DNA of 57,390 nucleotides from Patescibacteria group bacterium (GCA_038063335.1 JBBTVF010000045.1:1-57390), one strand, 5' to 3'; counted from the stretch's first letter, positions 19,422 through 56,862 are shown. The notes: generated by a model from the sequence alone, not told the origin. Program-made: numbers and translations.

Positions 19422-19757
19422 TTAAATTTTTAATCCCGCTTTCCGCGCGGCATCGGCAATAACTTTAACGCGACCGTGATATTTATAATCACCCCTGTCA
19501 AAAATCGCGCTTTTTATTCCTTTTTCAGATGACTTTTTTCCAATAATTTCTCCCAATGATGCCGAAGCGTCTTTTGAAGAAACTTTTGACGCGCTAACCA
19601 ATGTTTTGCCGGTTGAATCATCAATTAATTGCGCGTAAATATAACGATTACTTTTAAAAATAGAAAATCTCGGCTTCTCCGGCGTTCCTTTAATTTTAGC
19701 GCGCACGCGCGTTTTTCTACGTTCTCTAATTTTATTTAATAATTTCTTTTTATTCAT
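19422..19757 (-). CDS. rplR: ribosomal protein L18
   Basis: [18 protein letters not shown]...[11 protein letters not shown]. Confidence 0.95.
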
Positions 19758-19905
19758 CCCTCACCCTTCAAAGATTTTATTATAAATTTTAATAAAATTT
19801 ATAATATATAATAATTGAAGTTTTTATTTATTGGTTTATTTATATTCTTTATTTTTATTATTAATCCCCGCCTTTCAAATTTTTTATCTTTGAAGGGTGA
19901 GGGAT
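19756..19905. mobile_element. F-family palindromic element F1 (putative MITE) at the rplF stop / rplR start
   Basis: ATCCCTCACCCTTCAAAGAT ... ATCTTTGAAGGGTGAGGGAT, 20/20 bp inverted termini. Near-identical to 32854-33003. Confidence 0.85.
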
Positions 19906-22480: not shown

Positions 22481-22665
22481 TTGTTTATTATCGTTAATAT
22501 TCTCGCAATTGATTTTTTAACGTTTTTAATTTCTTTAATATTCTTGACTTTACCATAAAATAAATCAACTTTTAATTTCCTTAGTTTTCCCTGATATTCA
22601 GACAGATTTTTCTTAAGCTCCAATAACGACCAATTTTTCATTTGTTTAATTTCTTGTTTTTTCAT
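22477..22665 (-). CDS. rpmC: ribosomal protein L29
   Basis: 62 aa, helical, in the position between L16 and S17. Confidence 0.88.
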   Translation of the reverse strand: MKKQEIKQMKNWSLLELKKNLSEYQGKLRKLKVDLFYGKVKNIKEIKNVKKSIARILTIINK

Positions 22666-22807
22666 CCCTCACCCTTCAAAGATTGCTTGTAAATTTTATA
22701 AAAATTTACAAATTAAATCTTATGAATATTTAATTTATTTTATTTATATATAACATAAAAATATTTTATTTCCCCAAATTCTTCATTATCTTTGAAGGGT
22801 GAGGGAT
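22664..22807. mobile_element. F-family palindromic element F2 at the rplP stop / rpmC start
   Basis: Same 20-bp perfect termini. The interior resembles 24731-24875, including the hairpin CTTGTAAATTTT..AAATTTACAA. Confidence 0.85.
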
Positions 22808-24432: not shown

Positions 24433-24732
24433 TTAAACTTTTTTATCCTCTGTTTTCTTTTCTAATTCCTTTTGCATTTTTCCGCCGTGTCTGATGAATT
24501 TTCTCGTTAAAGAGAATTCTCCTAGCCGATGGCCAATCATTTCTTCGGTTACTCTCACACTAATAAAATTCTTGCCATTATGAACGCCAAACGTAAAACC
24601 AACCATTTCTGGAGAAATTTCCGAATCGCGCGCCCAAGTTTTAATAATCGTCGGGTCGCCCGATTTCAATTTTGACATCTTTTTTAATAATTTTTGGTCA
24701 ACATAAGGACCTTTTTTTGAACTTCTACTCAT
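24433..24732 (-). CDS. rpsS: ribosomal protein S19
   Basis: [12 protein letters not shown]...GHRLGEF. Confidence 0.95.
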
Positions 24733-24875
24733 CCCTCACCCTTCAAAGATTGCTTGTAAATTTTTATAAAATTTACAAGTTAAACCTTATGAAGATTAAA
24801 TTAATTTATTTTATATATAACATAAATATTCTACCTCCCCCAACTCTTCTTAATTATCTTTGAAGGGTGAGGGAT
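24731..24875. mobile_element. F-family palindromic element F3 at the rplB stop / rpsS start
   Basis: Same 20-bp perfect termini. Confidence 0.85.
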
Positions 24876-30481: not shown

Positions 30482-30832
30482 TTACACAAACTCAATTATC
30501 GCCATCTTGGCGGCATCATTCTTTCTGACTTTTGCCAATTTGATTATTCTCAAATATCCCCCTTTTCTTTCGGTATATCGCGGCGCGATTTGATAATACA
30601 ATTTTTGTCCCGCTTTATTGCTTAATCTTGATAAAATAATCCTTAAAGACGCCACGCTTTGTTTCTTGGCAAGCGTGACTAATTTTTCCGTTGCCGATTT
30701 AATTTCTTTAGCTTTCGCTTCCGTAGTTTCAATTTTTTCCTTAATGATTAAATTGGCGATTAAACTTTTTAAAAGAGCCCGGCGCTGACCCCTTGCTCTA
30801 TGAAATTTTCTTCCCTTTTTAAGATGCTTCAC
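30482..30832 (-). CDS. rplQ: ribosomal protein L17 (GTG start created at the element boundary)
   Basis: (M)KHLKKGRKFHRARGQRRALL matches the L17 N-terminus. The GTG uses the terminal G of element E3. Confidence 0.9.
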   Translation of the reverse strand: MKHLKKGRKFHRARGQRRALLKSLIANLIIKEKIETTEAKAKEIKSATEKLVTLAKKQSVASLRIILSRLSNKAGQKLYYQIAPRYTERKGGYLRIIKLAKVRKNDAAKMAIIEFV

Positions 30833-30952
30833 CCCCACACCATAACGAGTTTATATCTATTACAATATTATATTTAATATGATAATAAAATTTCACTCTT
30901 ATTTTTATACTATTATTAATTTATTCTCCCCACAACTCGTTTGGTGTGGGGG
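30832..30952. mobile_element. E-family palindromic element E3 (121 bp) between rpoA and rplQ
   Basis: CCCCCACACCATAACGAGTT ... AACTCGTTTGGTGTGGGGG termini, AT-rich interior, direct TTCA/TTCA flanks. Confidence 0.85.
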
Positions 30953-32390: not shown

Positions 32391-32855
32391 TTATACTCTT
32401 CTCTTTTTTGGCGGACGCGGACCGTTGTGCGGAATCGGCGTCACGTCTTTTATTGATAAAATGCTGAATCCCTGACCCGCTAAAGATTTCAAAGCGGAAT
32501 CTCTGGCGCTACCAACTCCTTTCATCACCACTTCAATTTCGGAAAAACCGAATTTCTTTAATTTTTCAGAGATAGCGGCTACCATTTTTGAAACCGCAAA
32601 CGGCGTGGCCTTTTTAGGCCCTGAAAAGCCCAAAGAGCCGGCGGAAATCCACGCAACCACATTGCCTTTTTTATCGGTTGCCGTAAGCATTGTGTTGTTA
32701 TAGCTAAAATTAACGTAAATCACGCCAATGCCTATTTTCCCAACCCCTTGTCCGCTTTTTTTGACGGAAGATTTTTTTACCATCGTTTCTTCCAATTTCT
32801 TGCCTTCTTCCAAAATATCTTTTTCAGTTTTTTCTATAACTTTTTTTTGTCCCAT
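32391..32855 (-). CDS. rpsK: ribosomal protein S11
   Basis: NNTMLTATDKKGNVVAWISAGSLGFSG. Confidence 0.95.
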   Translation of the reverse strand: MGQKKVIEKTEKDILEEGKKLEETMVKKSSVKKSGQGVGKIGIGVIYVNFSYNNTMLTATDKKGNVVAWISAGSLGFSGPKKATPFAVSKMVAAISEKLKKFGFSEIEVVMKGVGSARDSALKSLAGQGFSILSIKDVTPIPHNGPRPPKKRRV

Positions 32856-33003
32856 CCCTCACCCTTCAAAGATTTTATTATAAATTTTAATAAAATTTAT
32901 AATATAGAATAATTGAAGTTTTTATTTATTGGTTTATTTATATTCTTTATTTTTATTATTTATCCCTGCCTTCCAGATTTTTTATCTTTGAAGGGTGAGG
33001 GAT
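32854..33003. mobile_element. F-family palindromic element F4 at the rpsM stop / rpsK start
   Basis: Same 20-bp perfect termini. Differs from 19756-19905 at only ~6 positions. Confidence 0.85.
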
Positions 33004-38168: not shown

Positions 38169-38255
38169 AATAGTATTCGCTAATAATGCGAATTTTTAAC
38201 AAATAATGCTAATTTATTCGCGTTATTAAATTTATATTCGCGTTATTCGCGATTA
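38169..38255. repeat. ATTCGC-rich spacer element (H family, copy 1) between fpg and pyrG
   Basis: AATAGTATTCGC...AATAATGCTAATTTATTCGCGTTATT...ATTCGCGTTATTCGCGATTA. Its end supplies the last codons and stop of fpg. Confidence 0.7.
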
Positions 38256-39223
38256 CTCTGGCATTTGGGACAATAATGTGCCGACCTTCCTCCTATTCTA
38301 ATTCTTTTTATCATACTCCCGCAACGTGGACAAGGTTCGCCTTCATGCTGATAAACCCCCACACCATAACGAGAATAATTATTTTTTTGCATAGAAAACA
38401 CCGATTCTCGTTTGGTGTGGGGGTAAACTTTTAACATTTTAGCATACCCGCCCAATTTTCCAAAAGCGTCGCGAAAATCGCTTATTGAAGTTCCGCGCAA
38501 TTTCACGGCCTTTTCTAAAATTTCTTTCATCGCCTTGTATAAGTTTTTAAGTTCGTAAGTTTTAAGTTTATAAGTTTGCCTTAGCGGATTAATTTTCGCC
38601 TGCCATAAAATCTCATCGGAATAAATATTGCCAATACCAGCGATTATTTCTTGGTCCATTAAAACCTGCTTAATCTTGCGTTTTTGCGACTTTATTAACT
38701 TTACAAACTTTATAACATTAAAACTTTTGTCCAGCGGCTCCGGTCCCAAATTTTTTAATTCCGGTAAATTTTCAATTTCATCTTTTGGTCCGAATAAAAT
38801 CTTGGCGAATTTTCGCAAATCCGAAAGTCCAACTTGCCAGCCATTGTCTAAATAAAGAATAAAATGAATATAATTATTAACTTTTTCTTCTAACGCGCCC
38901 TTGATTAAACTTCTCACTATTACTTTTTGTTTATCCTGAGCTTTGCCGAAGGACCATTTTCCATACAGCAAATGCCCTGTCATTTTTTGGTGAATTAATA
39001 ATAAAAAATTGTTAGTTAAATAAATAAGTATATTTTTCCCGCGGCGTTTTACGTCAATAATCTTCAATCCCTTAATTTGCTTTTCCAATTTATTGGGTTT
39101 TGTCCGCCAGCTGACGGATTTTATAAGTTTCGGCGCATTAAACCAAACGCCGACAATTTTTCTGCCGACGATTTTTTTCTTTAAGTCGTTTACAATTGTC
39201 TCAACTTCTGGCAACTCCGGCAT
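38243..39223 (-). CDS. mutM: formamidopyrimidine-DNA glycosylase (carries a 24-codon element-derived insert)
   Basis: MPELPEVE N-terminus (start chosen at 39223), H2TH region, C-terminal zinc finger CPRCG...CPKC. Confidence 0.9.
   Translation of the reverse strand: MPELPEVETIVNDLKKKIVGRKIVGVWFNAPKLIKSVSWRTKPNKLEKQIKGLKIIDVKRRGKNILIYLTNNFLLLIHQKMTGHLLYGKWSFGKAQDKQKVIVRSLIKGALEEKVNNYIHFILYLDNGWQVGLSDLRKFAKILFGPKDEIENLPELKNLGPEPLDKSFNVIKFVKLIKSQKRKIKQVLMDQEIIAGIGNIYSDEILWQAKINPLRQTYKLKTYELKNLYKAMKEILEKAVKLRGTSISDFRDAFGKLGGYAKMLKVYPHTKRESVFSMQKNNYSRYGVGVYQHEGEPCPRCGSMIKRIRIGGRSAHYCPKCQSNRE
38356..38423. mobile_element. E-family palindromic element E4 (68 bp) inside fpg, in frame
   Basis: CCCCCACACCATAACGAGAA ... 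TTCTCGTTTGGTGTGGGGG with direct TAAA/TAAA flanks. 68+4 = 72 nt = 24 codons. Confidence 0.85.
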
Positions 39224-39224
39224 A

Positions 39225-40928
39225 TTATTCAACCGCCACTCTTAAAACCTCTTCCAAAGTGGTTTGTCCTGATTCTATCTTTTCTAACCCGTCTTCAAAC
39301 ATAAGTCTCATTCCCTCCTGTCGCGCCTTATTTTTAATGATGTTCGTCCCTGATTTGGCGATAATCAATTCACGAATAGCGTCAGAAACATAAAGAATTT
39401 CAAAAAGCCCTATTTGTCCGCGATAACCGGAAAATCCGCAAACGCCGCATCCTTCGCCCTGGTAAATCATTTCCGGCATTTTCGCTTTAATATCCATACT
39501 TTTTAGATGACTTTGTAAAACGTTTAATAATTCTTTACCGGGCTTTATTGAATGAACGCACGCAGTGCAAATTTTACGCACCAAACGCTGAGCAATAACC
39601 ACGTTAAGCGTTGAAGAAATTAAAAACGGCTGTACGTTTAAATCAAGAAGTCGGGGAATCGCGGTTGGCGCATCATTGGTATGAAGAGTTGAAAGTAAAC
39701 GATGTCCGGTTAAAGAAGCGTTTACCGCAATATCTGCCGTTTCTCCGTCGCGGATTTCACCAACCATAATAATATCCGGATTCTGACGCACAAACGAACG
39801 TAATCCCGAAGAGAAAGTAAGCCCAGCCTTGACATTGACCTGCGTTTGATTCACTCCCGGAATATCATATTCTATCGGGTCTTCAACGGAAACAATATTA
39901 ACTTTTGGCGTATTAAGAATCCCCAAAATGGCGTAAAGCGTGGTTGTTTTTCCGGAGCCGGTCGGGCCGGTCACTAAAATCATTCCGCGCGGTTTTTTAA
40001 TAGCCATTTCTATTTTAGGCAATTCGCTTTGCGAAAAACCAAGTTCGTAAAGTGTAAGCGGTCGCAAAGAACCTTTTAATAAACGCATTTCCCCTTTTTC
40101 GCCGTGAAAAGTCGGAATTACCGAAACGCGAACATCGACAAATTGGTCTTCAATCGGAAATCTAAAACGGCCATCTTGCGGTGCGTTGTGAATGTCTATC
40201 TGCAAATTCGACAAAACTTTTATCCTCGCTATTAAAATCGGCGCGATAACCGGCGGCAAATTCAAAATTTCCTGCAAAATCCCGTCTATGCGATAACGCA
40301 CTATCAATTTATTTTCAAAAGTTTCGAAATGAATATCAGACGCTCCCGAAGTGGCGGCGTGCTCTATAATTGTATTGACGATATTCACAATCGGCACCGC
40401 TTCTATCATTTTTGACATATCCAGCGCTCCGGCAATGCCTATGGATTCTTTAAGATTTTCTTCAATAACTTTTCCGAATTCTTCGTTAATTTTCTTTTTA
40501 TATTGTCTCAAGCCGAATTTTAAATCGGATTGCGACATTAAGTAAATGTCCAACCAGACGTTAAGCAAAGTCCGAAGATAATTAATGGTATAAAAATCTT
40601 CCGGGTCAAGCATCGCCAATTTTCCGCGTTTTTCTTTCGGATTAAATTCAAAAAGAATCACGCCGCGGCTTTTAGCAAAAGCTTCGGGAATTAATTTTAA
40701 AACGTCTTGAGAAATATTAACCGTGGAAAGATTAATTTGCGAAACATTAAAAAATTTGGCAATGCTTCCGGCAAGATATTTTTCATCAATAAATCCCTTG
40801 CCAATAAGAATATCCAAAACCAAACGATTACTACGAACCGCTTCTTCTTCGGCCGCCTGATAATCATGTTCGCTCGCCAATCCGGTAGATTCAACTATTT
40901 TTTTGATGTCCTCGGATAATAAATGCAT
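39225..40928 (-). CDS. pilB: type IV pilus / type II secretion assembly ATPase (PilB/GspE family)
   Basis: Walker A GPTGSGKTTT, VGEIRD, tetra-Cys CTAC...CGVCGFSGY. Confidence 0.9.
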   Translation of the reverse strand: MHLLSEDIKKIVESTGLASEHDYQAAEEEAVRSNRLVLDILIGKGFIDEKYLAGSIAKFFNVSQINLSTVNISQDVLKLIPEAFAKSRGVILFEFNPKEKRGKLAMLDPEDFYTINYLRTLLNVWLDIYLMSQSDLKFGLRQYKKKINEEFGKVIEENLKESIGIAGALDMSKMIEAVPIVNIVNTIIEHAATSGASDIHFETFENKLIVRYRIDGILQEILNLPPVIAPILIARIKVLSNLQIDIHNAPQDGRFRFPIEDQFVDVRVSVIPTFHGEKGEMRLLKGSLRPLTLYELGFSQSELPKIEMAIKKPRGMILVTGPTGSGKTTTLYAILGILNTPKVNIVSVEDPIEYDIPGVNQTQVNVKAGLTFSSGLRSFVRQNPDIIMVGEIRDGETADIAVNASLTGHRLLSTLHTNDAPTAIPRLLDLNVQPFLISSTLNVVIAQRLVRKICTACVHSIKPGKELLNVLQSHLKSMDIKAKMPEMIYQGEGCGVCGFSGYRGQIGLFEILYVSDAIRELIIAKSGTNIIKNKARQEGMRLMFEDGLEKIESGQTTLEEVLRVAVE

Positions 40929-40985
40929 AAAAAAATAATTTTAAATTCTGAATTTCAATTAAATTTTAATTGACTAAATTTTAAA

Positions 40986-43586
40986 TTAACCACACAATCC
41001 CCAACCGCAACTCGGGCACTTAATACAACCCTCCTGCTTCGCAAGCGCGACATTGCAAGAAGGGCATATTTTAAAAGAATTTTCGCTTTGCGGTTCATCG
41101 CCATTATCAACCGGCGATAACCCCAAATTGCTGAACGGAGTCAAAGAAATATTGGCGCTAGCTTCGGCATAAACAGCCATTCCTTTTGTTTTTTCATCTT
41201 TTTTAATAAGTGTTAAATGCTGTAAAGAATCTTTTTCTTTTAATTTCTTTTTAATGCTCCCGCCGATTAAAACCTGATTTTTTAAAGATTTATCGCGATA
41301 AACAGTTACACCCTTACATCCCAATTCATAAGCCAACAAATAAGCTTTTTTAATGTCATCAACCGAGGCATCCGAAGGGAAATTGTTCGTTTTTGAAATT
41401 GACGAATCCGTCCATTTCTGAAAAGCCGCCAAAACTTTAATATGGTCAACCGGAGAAATATCCATCGCGGTCAAAAAAATCTTTTTAATGTTCGCGGGGA
41501 TGTAAGTAATGTTTTTGATACTGCCGTTCAACGCCGAGGCGTCTTTTATTAAATCTTCATCCATTAATCCTTCTTTTCTCATTCTTTCTTCAAATACCGG
41601 ATCAACATAATAAAAATTTCCGATTGCCACGCTTTTTTCAAAAACCAAACTGAATATCGGTTCAATGCCGCTGGAAGTTCCGGCAATCATTGAAATTGAA
41701 CCGGTTGGAGCAATAACAGTGTTAAATCCGTTTCTAATTCCGTATTTTTTTATTTTTTTCACGATTCCATTCCAATCAAGATGCCATGATTTCTTGTCTT
41801 TAAATCCGGCAAACGGCAATTTCCCGTCTTTATAAAATGATTTATCAAAATACGGCATTCTTCCCCTTTCCTTCGCAAGCTCAATGGAAGCCGATTTAGT
41901 GTGATAATTAATGAATTCCATCAAGCGTTCCATAAATTCCAGACACTGTTTAGAAGCGTAAGGAATTTCAAGTTCGTAAAACAAATCGGCAACGCCCATC
42001 ACACCCAACCCGAGCTTACGCGTATTTAAACTTATTTCTTCAATTTCCGGCAAAGGATATTTATTGATATCCACCACATTATCCAAAAATCTTGTGGCGA
42101 TTTTAACATCGCGTTCAAGCGCCTGCCAGTCAAAGTGCGGTTTTTTGCCGCCGTTTTTCTTTAAATATTCCCAAATGTTTATTGAACCGAGATTGCAAGA
42201 TTCAAAAGGATAAAGTAAAACTTCACCGCATGGATTAGTACATTCAATCGGCCCCAGATATTTCGCGAAGGGATTATATTCATTTATTCGGTCATAAAAT
42301 AAAATTCCCGGCTCAGCCGATTCCCAAACTTGGTAAGTAATCATATCAAAAAGCTGTTTCGGGTCTATTTCCTTGACAACCTTTCCATTCCTCGGATTTA
42401 TTAAGGGATACATTTTTCCTTCTTTTAAACATTGCCAAAATTCCGGCTTAACCATTATGGAAATATTAAAATTTCTTAAGGCCTTATTCCCTTCTTTAGC
42501 TTTAATGAATTTATCAATATCCGGATGGTCGCTGTTTAAAATTCCCATATTGGCGCCGCGCCTGATTCCGCCCTGTTTAATTGCATCCGTCATATTGTCA
42601 AACATAGACATAAAACTGATTGGACCGGATGAACTGCCGCCGGTGGTTTTTATAAAATCACCCTCGGGTCTTAAATGGGCAAAATTATATCCCACTCCGC
42701 CGCCTGACTTAAAAATAATCGCCGCGGCTTTTAAAGAATTCATTATTGATTCTATAGAATCTTCTACGCCAAGAACAAAGCAAGCCGAACCCATGCCTAA
42801 GTAATTACCGAAATTAGCCAAAGCCGGAGTGTTGGGCATAAAACGACGATCCACCATCAAATTATAATAAGCGTCAATTTCGGATTCATACTTATTAAAA
42901 TATCCTTTTTTAAAAAGTTCCAGAAAACTCTGCCAGGAAATTTTTATTTTTTTATCTTTTGCCAATCGGTCATACATCCTCTTCATTCCTTCTAAGTGGA
43001 ATTGATTAAGTTTATATTTGCCGATTGAAAACTTGCCTGCGAATTTTATCGGGTCAAATTCTTCAAAACGACGTTCTGAAACTCCGCCTACTTTTTTATA
43101 AATTTTAGAATCGTAAAAAAGAGAAGAAATCGCCGTATGCGTCGCCACTCTTTCAAAAAGCTGTTTGGGCGATTCTATTATTTTTCCGTCATCGTTTTTT
43201 CTCAAATAACGCGACGCCAAAACTCTTAGGGCGTTAATGTCAAATTTTTTATCAACTTCATCCACCTCTTCCTTATTTAAAACCTGCTCTTTTTCTTTTC
43301 TTATTTCCGCCCGATGTTGGCGGTATAAAATATAAGCCTTGGCAATGCGAGGGTGGACTTTTTCAATCAAAACTTGTTCCACAACATCTTGAACTTCTTC
43401 AACTGTGGGAATCGCGCCTTTTTTTATTTTTTTCTGCAAACGACGAAGCACTTCTTTTGAAAATTCCGTCGCCAACTGCCAATTCGGCTCTCCAACCGCC
43501 ACCGAAGCCTTGTAAATGGCATTTGTTACTTTTTCAATTTTGAACGGCGCTGTTTGGCCGTTACGTTTGCGGATAAGTTTGAACAT
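40986..43586 (-). CDS. nrdJ: ribonucleotide reductase, class II (B12-dependent) with ATP-cone
   Basis: ATP-cone N-terminus, TNPCGEVLL active-site motif, C-terminal CPSC..CIKCPSCG. Confidence 0.85.
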   Translation of the reverse strand: MFKLIRKRNGQTAPFKIEKVTNAIYKASVAVGEPNWQLATEFSKEVLRRLQKKIKKGAIPTVEEVQDVVEQVLIEKVHPRIAKAYILYRQHRAEIRKEKEQVLNKEEVDEVDKKFDINALRVLASRYLRKNDDGKIIESPKQLFERVATHTAISSLFYDSKIYKKVGGVSERRFEEFDPIKFAGKFSIGKYKLNQFHLEGMKRMYDRLAKDKKIKISWQSFLELFKKGYFNKYESEIDAYYNLMVDRRFMPNTPALANFGNYLGMGSACFVLGVEDSIESIMNSLKAAAIIFKSGGGVGYNFAHLRPEGDFIKTTGGSSSGPISFMSMFDNMTDAIKQGGIRRGANMGILNSDHPDIDKFIKAKEGNKALRNFNISIMVKPEFWQCLKEGKMYPLINPRNGKVVKEIDPKQLFDMITYQVWESAEPGILFYDRINEYNPFAKYLGPIECTNPCGEVLLYPFESCNLGSINIWEYLKKNGGKKPHFDWQALERDVKIATRFLDNVVDINKYPLPEIEEISLNTRKLGLGVMGVADLFYELEIPYASKQCLEFMERLMEFINYHTKSASIELAKERGRMPYFDKSFYKDGKLPFAGFKDKKSWHLDWNGIVKKIKKYGIRNGFNTVIAPTGSISMIAGTSSGIEPIFSLVFEKSVAIGNFYYVDPVFEERMRKEGLMDEDLIKDASALNGSIKNITYIPANIKKIFLTAMDISPVDHIKVLAAFQKWTDSSISKTNNFPSDASVDDIKKAYLLAYELGCKGVTVYRDKSLKNQVLIGGSIKKKLKEKDSLQHLTLIKKDEKTKGMAVYAEASANISLTPFSNLGLSPVDNGDEPQSENSFKICPSCNVALAKQEGCIKCPSCGWGLCG

Positions 43587-43654: not shown

Positions 43655-44839
43655 TTACTTTCTTTTTTTCCTCAAAAACGCCGGAATATCATACACGTCG
43701 TCCCAATTTCCGTTTTTTTCTTCGTTTATCATTTCTTCTTTTTCTTTTTTTTTTACGTCTTTGATGCCGCTTATCGCCGACATTTCAATTTTCTCTTTTA
43801 AATCTTTATTGGATGAAGGAATAATTTCTTCCGAAATAAAAAGATTCGGCAAAATTCCGTTGTTTGAAGATTTTACCACATCTCCGTTAAAATCCGCGGC
43901 TATTAAGGTAACTTTTAGCTGTCCTTTTTTAAGTTTGCGGTCATGATGGGCTCCAAAAATTATTTTTGCCGACGAATTGGCGTGTTCGGCAATCATTCTT
44001 GCCACGTCATTTATTTCGCTCATCTTCAAATCACGATGACCGGAAACGCTGAATAAAATTCTTTTTGCTCCATCAATGGAAATTTCCAAAAGAGGAGAAT
44101 TAATCGCCAAGTGAGCAGCCGTTGTGGCGCGCTCAGCCCCGCTGGAATAACCGATGCCGATAATTGCCGAACCGGCATTCTGAATTATGGCTTTTACGTC
44201 GGCAAAATCAACGTTAATAATTCCGGCAGTGGTAATCAAATCAGCCACTCCAATAACGGAATTTTTAAGAATCTCATCAACCGCTTCAAAGGCTTTCGTT
44301 AAAGAAGTATTTTGATTAATTACCGAAAATATTCGGTCATTAGGGATGGTAATTAAAGCGTCAACCTTGTCTTTTATTCTTGTTATTCCTTCTTCGGCTA
44401 TTCTTCGGCGTTCAAATCCTTCAAAAACAAAAGGTTTTGTGACCACGGCAACCGTTAAAATTCCCAAATCTTTGGCGATTTCCGCAACCACCGGTAAAGC
44501 GCCTGTTCCCGTTCCGCCGCCGAACCCGGCTGTTAAAAAAACCATATCCGCTCCGCTTAATACTTCGGCGATTTCCGCTTGATTTTCTTCGGCTGCCTGA
44601 CGACCCAAATCCGGATTCATTCCGGTCCCCAATCCCTTAGTAAGATTTTTCCCGATATAAACTTTCTTTCTGGAAATGCAAAAATTCAAATCTTGGACAT
44701 CCGTGTTAATAACAACGGAATCCGTGCCGCGAGGAAGTTCATCGCTCATTCTCGTTACGGCATTGCCGCCGGCCCCCCCGACACCGACGATTCTTATTTT
44801 TGCCAGATTGATATTTTTTGGTTTTTTTCTTTTTGCCAT
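43655..44839 (-). CDS. ftsZ: cell division protein FtsZ
   Basis: GVGGAGGNAV and GFGGGTGTGALPVVAEIAK. Confidence 0.96.
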   Translation of the reverse strand: MAKRKKPKNINLAKIRIVGVGGAGGNAVTRMSDELPRGTDSVVINTDVQDLNFCISRKKVYIGKNLTKGLGTGMNPDLGRQAAEENQAEIAEVLSGADMVFLTAGFGGGTGTGALPVVAEIAKDLGILTVAVVTKPFVFEGFERRRIAEEGITRIKDKVDALITIPNDRIFSVINQNTSLTKAFEAVDEILKNSVIGVADLITTAGIINVDFADVKAIIQNAGSAIIGIGYSSGAERATTAAHLAINSPLLEISIDGAKRILFSVSGHRDLKMSEINDVARMIAEHANSSAKIIFGAHHDRKLKKGQLKVTLIAADFNGDVVKSSNNGILPNLFISEEIIPSSNKDLKEKIEMSAISGIKDVKKKEKEEMINEEKNGNWDDVYDIPAFLRKKRK

Positions 44840-44977
44840 CCCTCACCTTTCGATGATTTTATTTATTTTTATATAAAAATAAATATTAATCAATCGAATT
44901 ATGTTAATTTATTTATATTTCTCATCCCATGTCCTCCAATTATAATTTTTAAAAATTATCCTCGAAGGGTGAGGGAT
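44838..44977. mobile_element. F-family element F5 (divergent) upstream of the ftsZ start
   Basis: ATCCCTCACCTTTCGATGAT ... ATCCTCGAAGGGTGAGGGAT (18/20 pairable). The interior is unrelated and holds two perfect AT palindromes. Confidence 0.75.
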
Positions 44978-54248: not shown

Positions 54249-54349
54249 AATTTAAAATTTCTAATTTTAAATTTTAAATAAATGATTTAATTTTAAATTT
54301 AAAATTCAGCCAATTAAAATTTAATTAAAATTCACAATTTAAAATTAAT

Positions 54350-54817
54350 TTATCTGGCAAAATGCGCAAAGGCTCTATTCGCTTCCGCCATTCGGTGCAT
54401 ATCTTGTTTCTTTTTAATCGCCGAACCTTCATTTTTAGAAGCGGCTATTATTTCTTCCGTTAATTTTTGCGTCATTGATTTCCCTTTTTTCGCGTTAGCG
54501 GAATTGATAATCCAATTACAAGCTAAAAAAAATTTTCTTTCCGGCCTTACTTCACGCGGAACCTGATAATTTGCTCCTCCCACTCTTTTTGAAATAACTT
54601 CCAAGAGAGGCGAAGCGTTCGAAATGGCTTTGTCAAAAATCGCGAGCGGCTCTTGCTTTGTTTCTTTTTGAATATTTTCAAAACATTTGTAAAAAACTTT
54701 TTCAGCGACTGATTTTTTTCCATCCATCATTAAATAATTGATAAAACGACTGGCCGCAATACTGCCGTGCTTAATATCCGCTTTATGATTTTTTTTGTAT
54801 TTTTTCGGTTTCCTCAT
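54350..54817 (-). CDS. rpsG: ribosomal protein S7
   Basis: VSKRVGGANYQVP; ends ...ANRAFAHFAR. Confidence 0.95.
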   Translation of the reverse strand: MRKPKKYKKNHKADIKHGSIAASRFINYLMMDGKKSVAEKVFYKCFENIQKETKQEPLAIFDKAISNASPLLEVISKRVGGANYQVPREVRPERKFFLACNWIINSANAKKGKSMTQKLTEEIIAASKNEGSAIKKKQDMHRMAEANRAFAHFAR

Positions 54818-55963: not shown

Positions 55964-56071
55964 CCCCCACACCAATTGGTCGGGATGCCGAGAATCGAAC
56001 TCGGGCAGCATGCACCCCATGCATGCATACTACCATTATATTACATCCCGTTTTGTATATTGGTGTGGGGG
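55964..56071. mobile_element. E-family element E5 (108 bp) carrying a complete tRNA-Pro
   Basis: CCCCCACACCAAT ... ATTGGTGTGGGGG termini enclose the tRNA at 55977-56050. Confidence 0.7.
55977..56050 (-). tRNA. tRNA-Pro (GGG), CCA encoded
   Basis: Cloverleaf: acceptor CGGGATG/CATCCCG, anticodon loop ATGGGGT, T-arm CCGAG-TTCGATT-CTCGG, then ACCA. Confidence 0.88.
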
Positions 56072-56126
56072 CGTGCCCGGGCCACACGCACCCCATGCGC
56101 GCACACTGCCATTATGCTACAGCCCG
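56072..56126 (-). pseudogene. 5' two-thirds of a second tRNA-Pro (GGG), truncated in the T-arm by element E5
   Basis: CGGGCTG-TA-GCAT-AATGGCA-GTGT-G-CGCGC-ATGGGGT-GCGTG-TGGC-CCGGG, then the element. A decayed 3' remnant (TGAAATT-CCCGA-CGACCCG-A) lies at 55942-55963. Confidence 0.6.
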
Positions 56127-56308
56127 CGCTTTGCTTGCGTTTTAATGCATTTCGTGCAAGCTAAAACACGCCCCGCCCCGGCGGGGTTCTTGGTAAATTG
56201 AAGATTTGGGTATTTTCTTTTTTTGGAAGTCGGATTGTAATTACCGCGAAGTTTTTTTCTCGTTCCGCGAATAATTGAACCCTTCTCGCAAATTTTACAT
56301 TGTCTCAT
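56117..56308 (-). CDS. rpmB: ribosomal protein L28 (zinc form)
   Basis: MRQCKICEKG...PNLQ...CTKCIK. Confidence 0.8.
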   Translation of the reverse strand: MRQCKICEKGSIIRGTRKKLRGNYNPTSKKRKYPNLQFTKNPAGAGRVLACTKCIKTQAKRGL

Positions 56309-56360: not shown

Positions 56361-56633
56361 TCAGCACCCCGCCAAAGGCGTGGGTAGAATTTTATTATTT
56401 AATAATTTTTTAAACGCTTCGCCGGATTTATAACTTTTAATTTGTTTTTCTCTTTTTCTTGCTTCTTCTAATATCTTATATTCTTCCACTAAAATAATTT
56501 CAAGGGGTATATGCCTTATTAATGATTTAGTTTTACCGCTATTATGTTCTTTTAATCTTCTTTGAAGATTATCCGTATAGCCAATATAATGCCTACTTGT
56601 TTTTTTAGATTTTAGAATATAAACAAAATACAT
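56361..56633 (-). CDS. small GIY-YIG domain protein
   Basis: MYFVYILKS..RHYIGYTDNLQRRLKEHN. Start chosen at the internal Met. Confidence 0.8.
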   Translation of the reverse strand: MYFVYILKSKKTSRHYIGYTDNLQRRLKEHNSGKTKSLIRHIPLEIILVEEYKILEEARKREKQIKSYKSGEAFKKLLNNKILPTPLAGC

Positions 56634-56862
56634 ATTGCAGCCCCGCTTTCGCCTTGCTTCTTCGGGGCAAATTTTTTCTTTTAGAAAAAATTTGAGCCCC
56701 GATTGTTGGATTATCCCGGCAAAAGCCAAGTGGGTAAGCTCAATTTCAACCCGAAGATTAAAATACTGTTGCCTTCCCTTTTATAAATCCTTGATCCGAG
56801 AATCACAACCAAGGCTCATTATTATGATAAACAATTAAAGAAAAAAATCAATGTCAAACTTA

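What the first reader, a model, noticed from the sequence alone, without database searches (positions are those of the whole stretch)
38352..38427. E element inserted in-frame inside fpg/mutM, adding exactly 24 codons before the zinc finger
The 68-bp element at 38356-38423 is flanked by direct TAAA/TAAA. 68 + 4 = 72 nt, so the frame is kept and there is no stop. The protein reads ...KMLKV-YPHTKRESVFSMQKNNYSRYGVGV-YQHEGEPCPRCG. Excising the element and one duplication restores KVYQHEGEPC, which matches the conserved ..VYGRxGEPC context preceding the Fpg zinc finger. Palindromic repeats living in-frame inside protein genes are known from Rickettsia palindromic elements. Here the same family also sits in intergenic junctions, an rRNA leader and a tRNA locus.
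Basis: partly seen in the sequence, partly recalled or inferred. Interest (0 to 1): 0.75.

Follow-up and report, generated by a model that had tools for sequence, protein, structure and literature searches.

The report
Mobile hairpin inserted in-frame in Fpg
A 68-bp mobile DNA hairpin has landed inside the DNA-repair gene fpg of a groundwater Patescibacteria (CPR) bacterium without breaking the reading frame, and it belongs to a widespread family whose ~300-bp full-length members carry only a tiny GIY-YIG nuclease gene.

Summary
A 68-bp palindrome (38356-38423), flanked by TAAA/TAAA, adds 24 codons to an otherwise complete fpg/mutM gene on the minus strand.

It is a true insertion. 117 of 121 orthologues lack anything at this site, and syntenic empty sites carry a single TTTA. 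Three relatives have 41-bp, 32-bp or unrelated 47-bp palindromes at the same TTTA, and each addition is a multiple of three. fpg stays under purifying selection. In an AlphaFold model (pLDDT 83.5) the insert is the only disordered segment.

New here: the same termini (CCCCCACACCA...TGGTGTGGGGG) occur across Patescibacteria. 27 of 49 copies have identical 4-nt flanks, against 4.8 expected. Copies also sit in-frame in GatB, PolX, a Mur ligase and a glycosyltransferase. The ~300-bp copies carry one gene, an 85-aa GIY-YIG nuclease under purifying selection. Terminus type co-varies with nuclease sequence.

My reading is that the fpg insert is a non-autonomous derivative of a GIY-YIG mini-element. 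It behaves like a Rickettsia palindromic element and resembles Ssn/SRM systems in architecture. Mobilisation by the nuclease is inferred, not shown.

The parts
38243..39223 (-). fpg/mutM gene (326 aa from the ATG; the mechanical ORF listing starts 3 codons upstream at TTG 39232)
   Evidence: Pfam N-terminal, H2TH and zinc-finger domains. PDB Fpg E 1e-39. AF2 model matches MutM-DNA complexes, TM 0.86. dN/dS 0.1-0.26.
38356..38423 (.). E element, 68-bp imperfect palindrome (non-autonomous copy)
   Evidence: Absent from empty sites in L008, L010 and L012.
38352..38355 (.). Target-site duplication, copy 1 (TAAA on +, TTTA on the coding strand)
   Evidence: Empty sites carry one TTTA; filled sites carry two.
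38424..38427 (.). Target-site duplication, copy 2
38356..38376 (.). Left arm, 21 nt with one bulged T (CCCCCACACCA-T-AACGAGAAT). The first 18 nt are identical to the left terminus of full-length GIY-YIG elements.
38404..38423 (.). Right arm, 20 nt (ATTCTCGTTTGGTGTGGGGG). The last 17 nt are identical to the right terminus of full-length elements.
38377..38403 (.). 27-nt loop. It is missing precisely in the 41-bp copy of the closest relative (L001).
38261..38332 (-). Zinc-finger coding region (CPRC...CPKC), 7 codons downstream of the insert
   Evidence: pLDDT 80-91.
30832..30952 (.). E copy, 121 bp, TTCA/TTCA, filling a junction between two minus-strand genes
1093..1124 (.). Minimal 32-bp E hairpin, TCAA/TCAA, upstream of the 23S rRNA
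634..665 (.). Degenerate 32-bp E hairpin, TTTA/TTTA, 35 nt upstream of the 23S 5' end
55964..56071 (.). E-terminated unit that encloses a complete tRNA-Pro(GGG); no flank duplication
56361..56636 (-). Single-domain GIY-YIG nuclease gene of the window (91 aa). It is homologous to the element-borne nucleases but is not bracketed by GC-rich termini.
   Evidence: tblastn. hhalign 99%, 45% identity. No TIR.

Best explanation
The 68-bp block is a non-autonomous, MITE-like copy of a mobile-element family of Patescibacteria. The family is defined by termini of about 18 nt (CCCCCACACCA[Y]AACGAG ... CTCGTTTGGTGTGGGGG) and a 4-bp target duplication at T-N-N-A sites.

Shown:
- It inserted at a TTTA inside fpg, duplicating TTTA.
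- Element plus duplication is 72 nt and stop-free in the fpg frame, so the gene stays open.
- fpg remains under purifying selection.
- The extra 24 residues are modelled as the only disordered segment. They lie between the end of the lesion-capping-loop region and the strand that leads into the zinc finger.
- Full-length family members (about 270-310 bp) consist of the same termini around a single 85-aa GIY-YIG nuclease gene.

Inferred:
- That nuclease, supplied in trans, recognises the hairpin or panhandle formed by the termini and drives excision and insertion. This is by analogy with Ssn GIY-YIG ssDNA nucleases and their hairpin repeats.
- The 68-, 41- and 32-bp versions at the fpg site are related by deletions at the palindrome centre. 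Alternatively the site was hit repeatedly, with selection keeping only frame-preserving versions.
- The insert is transcribed and translated as a tolerated surface loop, not removed.
For: Insertion:
- Empty versus filled sites at the DNA level in syntenic loci.
- 117 of 121 orthologues are empty at this site.
- PDB alignments break at the block.

Family and mobility:
- 49 non-redundant copies were found. 27 have identical 4-nt flanks, against 4.8 +/- 2.0 expected from re-pairing flanks.
- Termini are invariant over 18 and 17 nt between short and full-length copies.

GIY-YIG link:
- 303-bp copies with flank duplications carry an 85-aa GIY-YIG ORF.
- Of 76 homologous genes from metagenomes, 35 have the same terminus class at both ends, across 8 classes.
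- A nuclease's nearest neighbour shares its terminus class in 31 of 35 cases, against 5.0 expected.
- Nuclease dN/dS is 0.04-0.35 and the catalytic residues are invariant. The termini stay unchanged although synonymous sites are near saturation.
- No other coding unit is bounded by E termini in 1.24 Mb of held DNA.
- The foreign palindrome at the same fpg site (L005) matches another GIY-YIG terminus class, CCCGTTAGA.

Tolerance:
- dN/dS is 0.18-0.26 among filled alleles.
- The AF2 model has pLDDT 83.5, and only residues 269-290 fall below 50.
- The fold matches MutM at TM 0.86.

Frame selection:
- 7 of 7 intragenic copies are multiples of three, against 9 of 25 intergenic copies.
- No in-silico excision uncovers a disrupted gene.

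Recurrence:
- In-frame copies occur in GatB, PolX, a Mur ligase and a GT2 glycosyltransferase, and solved-structure alignments break exactly at the E-derived peptide.
Against: - No experiment or transcript data shows that the GIY-YIG protein moves anything. GIY-YIG enzymes are hydrolytic nucleases with no known strand-transfer activity, so a host ligase or repair step must be assumed.
- A 4-bp duplication with inverted termini is also the signature of DDE transposases.
- The 57-kb window holds no E-bounded nuclease gene. Its one GIY-YIG gene has no such termini.
- About half of the copies lack identical flanks.
- 29 of 76 GIY-YIG loci matched none of my eight terminus classes.
- Translation of the insert is inferred only from frame preservation.
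Confidence: 0.72

Rival explanations
1. The E family is an ordinary MITE moved by a classical DDE transposase (for example an IS5-, IS1380- or IS701-type element, which also make about 4-bp duplications). That transposase would lie elsewhere in the genome. The GIY-YIG gene would be only a passenger, or a selfish gene that has colonised the MITE interior.
For: - The family has terminal inverted repeats and a 4-bp duplication.
- E units demonstrably accept cargo. One in the window and one in L041 each enclose a whole tRNA gene.
- Co-variation of termini and nuclease would also arise from simple co-inheritance.
Against: - No longer E-bounded unit and no transposase gene was seen in 1.24 Mb of held DNA.
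- The same minimal architecture (terminus, 9 nt, 85-aa ORF, terminus) recurs in at least 8 terminus classes.
- The nuclease is under purifying selection with an intact active site.
- The bulged arm always lies 5' of the gene, in 6 of 6 cases.
Confidence: 0.18
2. The insert is removed before the protein is made or matures (intron-like RNA excision, RNase processing followed by ligation, or intein-like splicing). Fpg would then be unaffected.
For: - The RNA would form a very stable stem that brings the two flanks together.
- E copies also sit inside tRNA-like genes, where an insertion would have to be removed for the tRNA to function.
Against: - If the insert were removed there would be no need for multiples of three. 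Yet all four fpg-site inserts (72, 45, 36 and 51 nt) and 7 of 7 intragenic copies preserve the frame, against 36% of intergenic copies.
- There is no Rfam intron match in the window.
- There is no intein or other extra domain in Pfam.
- The tRNA hosts look dead.
Confidence: 0.05
3. The 24 residues are an ancestral or adaptive Fpg loop that most relatives lost. The palindromic DNA would be incidental.
For: Four related alleles carry something at this exact position.
Against: - 117 of 121 orthologues are empty.
- The filled state is not monophyletic: L003 pairs with empty L008 at 87% bootstrap.
- One filled allele carries an unrelated palindrome.
- The DNA is a dispersed repeat with a flank duplication, also found in intergenic DNA.
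- The segment is modelled as disordered.
Confidence: 0.02
4. fpg is a decaying pseudogene in this lineage, and the intact frame is a coincidence.
For: dN/dS is slightly higher among filled alleles (0.18-0.26) than among empty ones (0.09-0.16).
Against: - The ORF is intact in three diverged filled lineages.
- The catalytic N-terminus (PELPEV), the H2TH domain and the four zinc-finger cysteines are all conserved.
- dN/dS is well below 1.
Confidence: 0.03

Closest known systems
Rickettsia palindromic elements (RPEs; Ogata et al. 2000, as summarised in PMC10969869)
   Same: - Short palindromic dispersed repeats, found both between genes and in-frame inside unrelated housekeeping genes.
- They add a peptide segment at positions compatible with the protein fold.
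- The host is a reduced-genome, host-dependent bacterium.
   Different: - There is no sequence relationship.
- E copies are shorter (29-167 bp, against about 100-150 bp).
- E interiors are unrelated between copies and only the ~18-nt termini are conserved.
- E has a clear 4-bp duplication.
- E is read in all three frames (PHTK..GVGV, PPHQ..VWCGG, TPTPK..VWG), whereas RPEs encode one conserved peptide.
- A candidate autonomous partner (a GIY-YIG unit) is identified here.
Ssn/SRM systems (SsnA GIY-YIG ssDNA nuclease with NTS/dRS3-type hairpin repeats; Chenal et al. 2025, PMC11893778)
   Same: - A single-domain GIY-YIG nuclease of about 85-94 aa whose gene is bracketed by the repeat that is dispersed through the genome.
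- Repeat type co-varies with the nuclease.
- The architecture was noted there as 'identical to IS'.
- SRM-rich genomes include Rickettsia and Wolbachia.
   Different: - The published SRM motif is absent from E elements.
- SRMs are self-contained hairpins on each side of the gene, whereas E ends are the two halves of one long-range inverted repeat.
- NTS copies are rarely inside genes (2%).
- That paper reports no target duplication.
- The closest solved relatives of the E nuclease are UPF0213 (YazA/YhbQ-type) proteins. Membership of cd10448 could not be tested.
- The paper does not cover Patescibacteria.
Bacterial MITEs in general (Correia, ERIC, Nezha, QMITE and others; review PMC10969869)
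   Same: Small and non-coding, with terminal inverted repeats, a target-site duplication and many copies. They share ends with a longer coding element and occasionally fuse in-frame with host genes.
   Different: The coding partner is about 300 bp and encodes a GIY-YIG nuclease, not a DDE, serine or tyrosine transposase. The copies share only their ends, not an internal consensus.
REP/BIME elements with RAYT (IS200/IS605-like Y1 transposases)
   Same: A dispersed GC-rich hairpin paired with a small, possibly domesticated nuclease gene flanked by the repeats. ssDNA hairpin recognition is a plausible mechanism in both.
   Different: - E has no GTAG or CGTC head.
- No Y1 transposase is present.
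- IS200/IS605-type elements make no target duplication, whereas E makes 4 bp.
GIY-YIG-encoding and short ORF-less insertions in CPR rRNA genes (PMC11270868)
   Same: Same phylum. GIY-YIG genes lie in insertions that are not introns and do not fit homing, alongside many insertions under 200 bp that remain uncharacterised.
   Different: That work did not describe termini, duplications or protein-gene insertions. Whether those rRNA insertions are E-type elements was not tested here.

Membership tests
MITE (non-autonomous TIR element) | Small size and no coding capacity of its own | tested here: met
   68 bp. Family copies are 29-167 bp.
MITE (non-autonomous TIR element) | Terminal inverted repeats | tested here: met
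   20/21-nt arms in the fpg copy. The outer 18 and 17 nt are invariant across the family.
MITE (non-autonomous TIR element) | Target-site duplication, verified against an empty site | tested here: met
   One TTTA at empty sites and two at filled sites. 27 of 49 copies have identical 4-nt flanks, against 4.8 expected.
MITE (non-autonomous TIR element) | Multiple dispersed copies | tested here: met
   5 copies in the window (9 terminus matches against 0.21 expected). 49 non-redundant copies in held loci.
MITE (non-autonomous TIR element) | A longer coding element with the same ends that encodes a transposase | tested here: inconclusive
   Longer units with identical ends exist (about 300 bp). 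Their only gene is a GIY-YIG nuclease, which is not an established transposase class.
Rickettsia palindromic elements | Palindromic repeat found in-frame in diverse protein genes | tested here: met
   Fpg, GatB, PolX, a Mur ligase and a GT2 glycosyltransferase.
Rickettsia palindromic elements | Sequence membership in an RPE family consensus, in a Rickettsia host | not tested
   No RPE consensus was available in the tools. The host is Patescibacteria, and the E termini were not compared with any RPE sequence.
Ssn / SRM system | Single-domain GIY-YIG protein of about 90 aa | tested here: met
   85 aa, with Pfam PF01541 covering residues 1-71.
Ssn / SRM system | Protein belongs to CDD cd10448 | not testable with these tools
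   CDD is not available. The nearest solved proteins are UPF0213 BH0048/EF2693 (E 4e-12 and 5e-7), then SLX1. NCBIfam has no specific model.
Ssn / SRM system | Gene flanked by repeats that match the SRM motif HGTCWYN(0-2)YYVSBRHN(0-5)WNVSBRGN(0-2)RNCYNB | tested here: not met
   0 matches in 9 full-length E elements +/- 60 nt, and 0 in the window.
Ssn / SRM system | Site-specific cleavage of ssDNA next to the hairpin | not testable with these tools
   This needs a biochemical assay.
REP / RAYT | GTAG- or CGTC-headed 20-40-bp palindrome with an associated Y1 transposase | tested here: not met
   The termini begin CCCCC. The only associated gene is GIY-YIG.
IS200/IS605-type (peel and paste) | No terminal inverted repeats and no target duplication | tested here: not met
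   Both are present.
Intron or intein | Recognisable ribozyme or splicing domain | tested here: not met
   No Rfam family at the site. Pfam finds only Fpg domains.
Fpg/MutM (host gene) | N-terminal PELPEV catalytic motif, H2TH domain and C4 zinc finger | tested here: met

The most novel reading that the evidence does not exclude
E elements and their sibling families could be a previously unrecognised class of prokaryotic transposon. The autonomous units would be only about 270-310 bp, with an 85-aa GIY-YIG nuclease as their sole gene. That nuclease would act as the mobilising enzyme on the hairpin formed by the termini and produce 4-bp duplications. These would be the smallest autonomous DNA transposons known. 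Their non-autonomous offspring would remodel Patescibacteria genomes, inserting peptide loops into housekeeping proteins and landing in tRNA and rRNA loci. This would also give a concrete model for how Ssn-type nuclease/repeat pairs, and possibly RPEs, spread.
Probability: 0.4. Interest if true: 0.9.

Novelty: new variant of a known kind. Interest (0 to 1): 0.72.

Why it matters
In-frame 'selfish DNA in proteins' has been a curiosity largely tied to Rickettsia, with no known mobilising enzyme.

Here the same behaviour appears in the Candidate Phyla Radiation. There is clean empty-site evidence, recurrence in several essential genes, and a specific candidate engine: a ~300-bp unit made of two termini and a GIY-YIG nuclease gene.

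That makes three long-standing questions testable:
- How do palindromic repeats of this kind spread?
- Are single-domain GIY-YIG nucleases (Ssn- or UPF0213-like) mobile-element enzymes?
- How much of the unusual protein and rRNA 'insertion' load of CPR genomes is due to such elements?

It also matters for annotation. Extra loops in CPR proteins may be element scars rather than adaptations.

Tried and rejected
- **Genome scan.** I scanned the genome collection with the 14-mer CCCCCACACCAAAC. It was too short for 596 Gb, so most of the ~120 loci were chance hits. About 20 real elements were recovered by requiring both arms.
- **First AF2 model.** With 25 sequences the model was poor (pLDDT 67). 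I repeated it with 121 sequences.
- **Ssn membership.** NCBIfam has no model, the paper's supplements are not held, and the SRM motif gave 0 hits. Membership is left open.
- **Transposase partner.** I looked for a longer E-bounded unit of 0.4-4.5 kb. The only hits were chance pairs in Streptomyces and Ardenticatenaceae loci.
- **Strain polymorphism.** I looked for presence/absence differences among 21 contigs carrying the identical Fpg. The apparent differences are scaffold N-gaps.
- **Interrupted tRNAs.** I tried to restore them by in-silico excision. A cloverleaf returns in L041 but without an Ala anticodon, and nothing is restored in the window.
- **Other Fpg inserts.** At the DNA level some are palindromic and one is a direct repeat, so not all variable segments are E-like.
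- **Window GIY-YIG gene.** I checked it for bracketing GC-rich termini and found none.
- **Rejected readings.** Ancestral loop, pseudogene, intron or intein, and assembly artefact.

Full report
**1. The observation**

Window 38356-38423 is a 68-bp imperfect palindrome. It has a left arm CCCCCACACCA-T-AACGAGAAT, a 27-nt loop, and a right arm ATTCTCGTTTGGTGTGGGGG. TAAA lies directly on each side, at 38352-38355 and 38424-38427.

The element sits inside a minus-strand ORF, 38243..39232. The true ATG start is at 39223. The ORF has the N-terminal, H2TH and zinc-finger domains of Fpg/MutM and matches solved Fpg proteins at E 1e-39.

Element plus one duplication is 72 nt, or 24 codons.

As single-stranded DNA the block folds at -22.4 kcal/mol (z = -7.6). 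The 11-nt terminus occurs 9 times in the window, against 0.21 expected.

The exact insert-bearing protein is encoded on 21 contigs from independent Hainich groundwater assemblies. One of them (L218) is 100% identical to the window over 5 kb. The feature is real.

**2. It is an insertion**

Among 121 close orthologues, all Patescibacteria, 117 have nothing at this position.

I fetched syntenic loci with the same gene order: ribonucleotide reductase, T2SS-type ATPase, fpg, CTP synthase. They give a base-level picture.

| Locus | State at the site | Sequence on the coding strand |
|---|---|---|
| L008 | empty | AAAGTTTATCAA |
| L010 | empty | AAGGTTTACCGG |
| L012 | empty | AAAATTTACCAG |
| window | E copy, 68 bp | ...G TTTA [element] TTTA T... 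|
| L001 | E copy, 41 bp (both arms, no loop) | same TTTA flanks |
| L003 | E copy, 32 bp | same TTTA flanks |
| L005 | unrelated 47-bp palindrome, CCCCGTTAGAAAT...ATTTCTAACGGGG | same TTTA flanks |

The additions at the filled sites are 72, 45, 36 and 51 nt. All are multiples of three.

A bootstrap tree of the seven genes gives these groupings:
- window with L001: 100%;
- L003 (filled) with L008 (empty): 87%;
- window and L001 with L005 (the other palindrome family): 75%.

So occupancy of this site is not monophyletic. Either the same TTTA was hit more than once, or elements were lost precisely, or alleles were exchanged between lineages. I cannot tell these apart. Selection for the few permissive positions in Fpg would make repeated recovery of one site unsurprising.

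**3. The gene still works as a gene**

dN/dS is 0.18-0.26 between filled alleles and 0.09-0.16 between empty ones. The catalytic N-terminus, the H2TH domain and the four zinc-finger cysteines are conserved.

With a 121-sequence alignment, AlphaFold gives mean pLDDT 83.5 and pTM 0.82. The only segment below pLDDT 50 is residues 269-290, which is the insert. The model superposes on MutM/Fpg-DNA complexes at TM 0.86, normalised to the target.

By alignment to L. lactis Fpg, the insertion falls after the V-Y that follows the lesion-capping-loop region, immediately before the strand that leads into the zinc finger. The duplicated TTTA re-creates the V-Y on both sides.

That the insert is a tolerated flexible excursion is an inference from the model. 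Any effect on substrate choice is untested.

**4. What the element is**

*Distribution and duplication.* The same termini occur in Saccharibacteria, Nealsonbacteria and other Patescibacteria MAGs and in groundwater metagenomes. There are 49 non-redundant copies in the DNA I hold. 27 of them have identical 4-nt flanks, against 4.8 +/- 2.0 expected when flanks are re-paired at random, with a maximum of 13 in 2000 trials. The targets are mostly TTTA/TAAA, TTCA/TGAA and TTGA/TCAA.

*What is conserved.* Interiors range from 7 to about 280 nt and are mostly unrelated between copies. Only the outer 18 nt (left) and 17 nt (right) are invariant.

*Full-length copies.* The 270-310-bp copies have a very compact layout: terminus, about 9 nt, a 258-nt ORF, terminus. 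The ORF is an 85-aa single-domain GIY-YIG nuclease (Pfam E 1e-15 to 1e-17).

*Link between nuclease and termini.* A metagenome search with these proteins returned 80 loci.
- In 35 of the 76 usable loci, the gene is bracketed at both ends by the same terminus class. There are 8 classes.
- One class is CCCGTTAGAG, which matches the foreign palindrome in L005 fpg. Another is CCCCCTCACT, which resembles the window's second repeat family.
- A nuclease's nearest sequence neighbour has the same terminus class in 31 of 35 cases, against 5.0 expected.
- The nuclease genes have dN/dS of 0.04-0.35, with the GIY-YIG catalytic residues invariant.
- Synonymous sites are close to saturation, yet the termini are unchanged. 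This argues for direct functional constraint on the termini.
- The arm with the single bulged base is always on the 5' side of the gene, in 6 of 6 cases.
- No other coding unit bounded by E termini was found in 1.24 Mb of held DNA.

**5. Frame preservation is selected and the phenomenon is general**

Besides fpg, E copies lie in long ORFs for four other proteins: a Mur ligase (L034), GatB (L037), a GT2 glycosyltransferase (L048) and PolX (L088). They are read in different frames, giving PHTK...GVGV, PPHQ...VWCGG and TPTPK...VWG.

Alignments to solved GatB (3AL0) and PolX (3AU2) break exactly at the E-derived peptide.

All 7 intragenic copies add a multiple of three, against 9 of 25 intergenic copies. 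Excising the remaining copies in silico never reveals a long ORF that they had disrupted. Gene-breaking copies are evidently purged.

**6. Mechanism**

Shown:
- insertion with a 4-bp duplication;
- shared ends between short copies and GIY-YIG-coding units;
- a unit-like association of nuclease and termini;
- purifying selection on the nuclease, on the termini and on the host gene.

Inferred:
- The nuclease acts in trans on the hairpin or panhandle formed by the termini, with host repair or ligation completing the move.
- The 68, 41 and 32-bp series arose by deletions at the palindrome centre.
- The insert is translated.

The main rival is a conventional DDE-mobilised MITE in which the GIY-YIG gene is cargo. 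E units can carry cargo, namely tRNA genes. I rate this rival at about 0.18.

RNA- or protein-level removal is unlikely given the frame statistics, but it is not excluded without transcript data.

**7. Comparison with what is known**

*RPEs.* In behaviour this is the Patescibacteria counterpart of Rickettsia palindromic elements (PMC10969869). It is not a sequence member of that family.

*Ssn/SRM.* In architecture it is closest to Ssn/SRM systems (PMC11893778). Those authors noted the IS-like layout and raised the possibility that such elements were domesticated. They reported no duplications and found few intragenic copies. Three things keep E apart from Ssn/SRM here:
- The published SRM motif is absent.
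- The E ends are half-arms of one long-range inverted repeat, not self-contained hairpins.
- The nearest solved proteins are UPF0213 (YazA/YhbQ-type), followed by SLX1.

So this works like an Ssn system, but membership is unproven.

*CPR rRNA insertions.* A CPR rRNA study had already recorded GIY-YIG-encoding and short ORF-less insertions that are not introns and do not fit homing (PMC11270868). These may be the same elements.

*Prior descriptions.* Full-text searches found no description of GIY-YIG-encoding TIR/TSD elements in bacteria, of MITEs in CPR, or of in-frame palindromes in Patescibacteria. The library does not cover all journals.

**8. Verdict**

On its own it is a new member of a known kind, an in-frame MITE. 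The link to a ~300-bp GIY-YIG unit, with duplication and empty-site evidence, makes it a new variant of a known kind. There is a substantial chance (about 0.4) that it represents a new transposon class.

Noticed in passing
window 55964-56130 (minus strand); also L041 7270-7470: In the window, an E-terminated unit encloses a complete tRNA-Pro(GGG) and sits inside a truncated tRNA-Pro-like gene. In L041, an E unit enclosing a complete tRNA-Ala(CGC) splits a tRNA-Ala-like gene in its anticodon loop. Neither has a flank duplication. The same amino-acid identity is nested twice, independently. One possible reading is that a cargo tRNA compensates for the gene the element destroyed.
   Followed up: partly
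L104 5881-6263: A full-length GIY-YIG E element (CACG/CACG) is inserted at the very 5' end of a tRNA-Tyr gene. The element's terminal CCC supplies the first GGG of the tRNA acceptor stem, so the tRNA is still called as intact.
   Followed up: partly
window 19756-19905, 22664-22807, 24731-24875, 32854-33003, 44838-44977: A second repeat family of 140-150 bp has termini ATCCCTCACCCTTCAAAGA...TCTTTGAAGGGTGAGGGAT. There are five copies, each filling a junction between two minus-strand genes exactly. The termini resemble the CCCCCTCACT class that brackets other GIY-YIG genes.
   Followed up: partly
window 634-665 and 1093-1124: Two minimal 32-bp E hairpins, one of them degenerate, lie 35 and about 500 nt upstream of the 5' end of the 23S rRNA (23S at 1-599, minus strand). 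Whether they are processed with the rRNA leader is unknown.
   Followed up: no
window 56361-56636 (minus strand): A stand-alone GIY-YIG nuclease gene, 45% identical to the E-type nucleases, lies about 300 bp from the tRNA-Pro/E locus and has no GC-rich termini. Its last codons (PTPLAGC) are encoded by a small GC-rich hairpin, CCCACGCCTTTGGCGGGGTG. That hairpin may itself be an element remnant.
   Followed up: partly
Fpg homologues P0023, P0035, P0057, P0069, P0089, P0093 and others; L214 1501-2526: Fpg in this clade has at least six other positions with lineage-specific inserts (for example ITLRMPQGYGEPSRT, SIILGADKRGTIRGTTRK, QPRIVDSPAGESLRG). In L214, two of them are palindromic at the DNA level (ATAACCCTTCGAATGCCTCAGGGTTAT and GATTCGCCAGCTGGCGAATC). 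One in L213 is a direct ACGCGGAAC repeat.
   Followed up: partly
window 40932-40987 and 54296-54351: A 56-nt AT-rich inverted repeat pair, 91% complementary, lies 13.3 kb apart in intergenic DNA.
   Followed up: no
L110 6536-6762: Tandem, partly nested E copies lie directly beside a GIY-YIG gene that is not itself enclosed by E termini. This suggests rearrangement between copies.
   Followed up: no
L059 4893-5059: A 167-bp E copy contains a second small hairpin, CCCCACACCTATACATATGTGTGGGG, nested in its interior.
   Followed up: no
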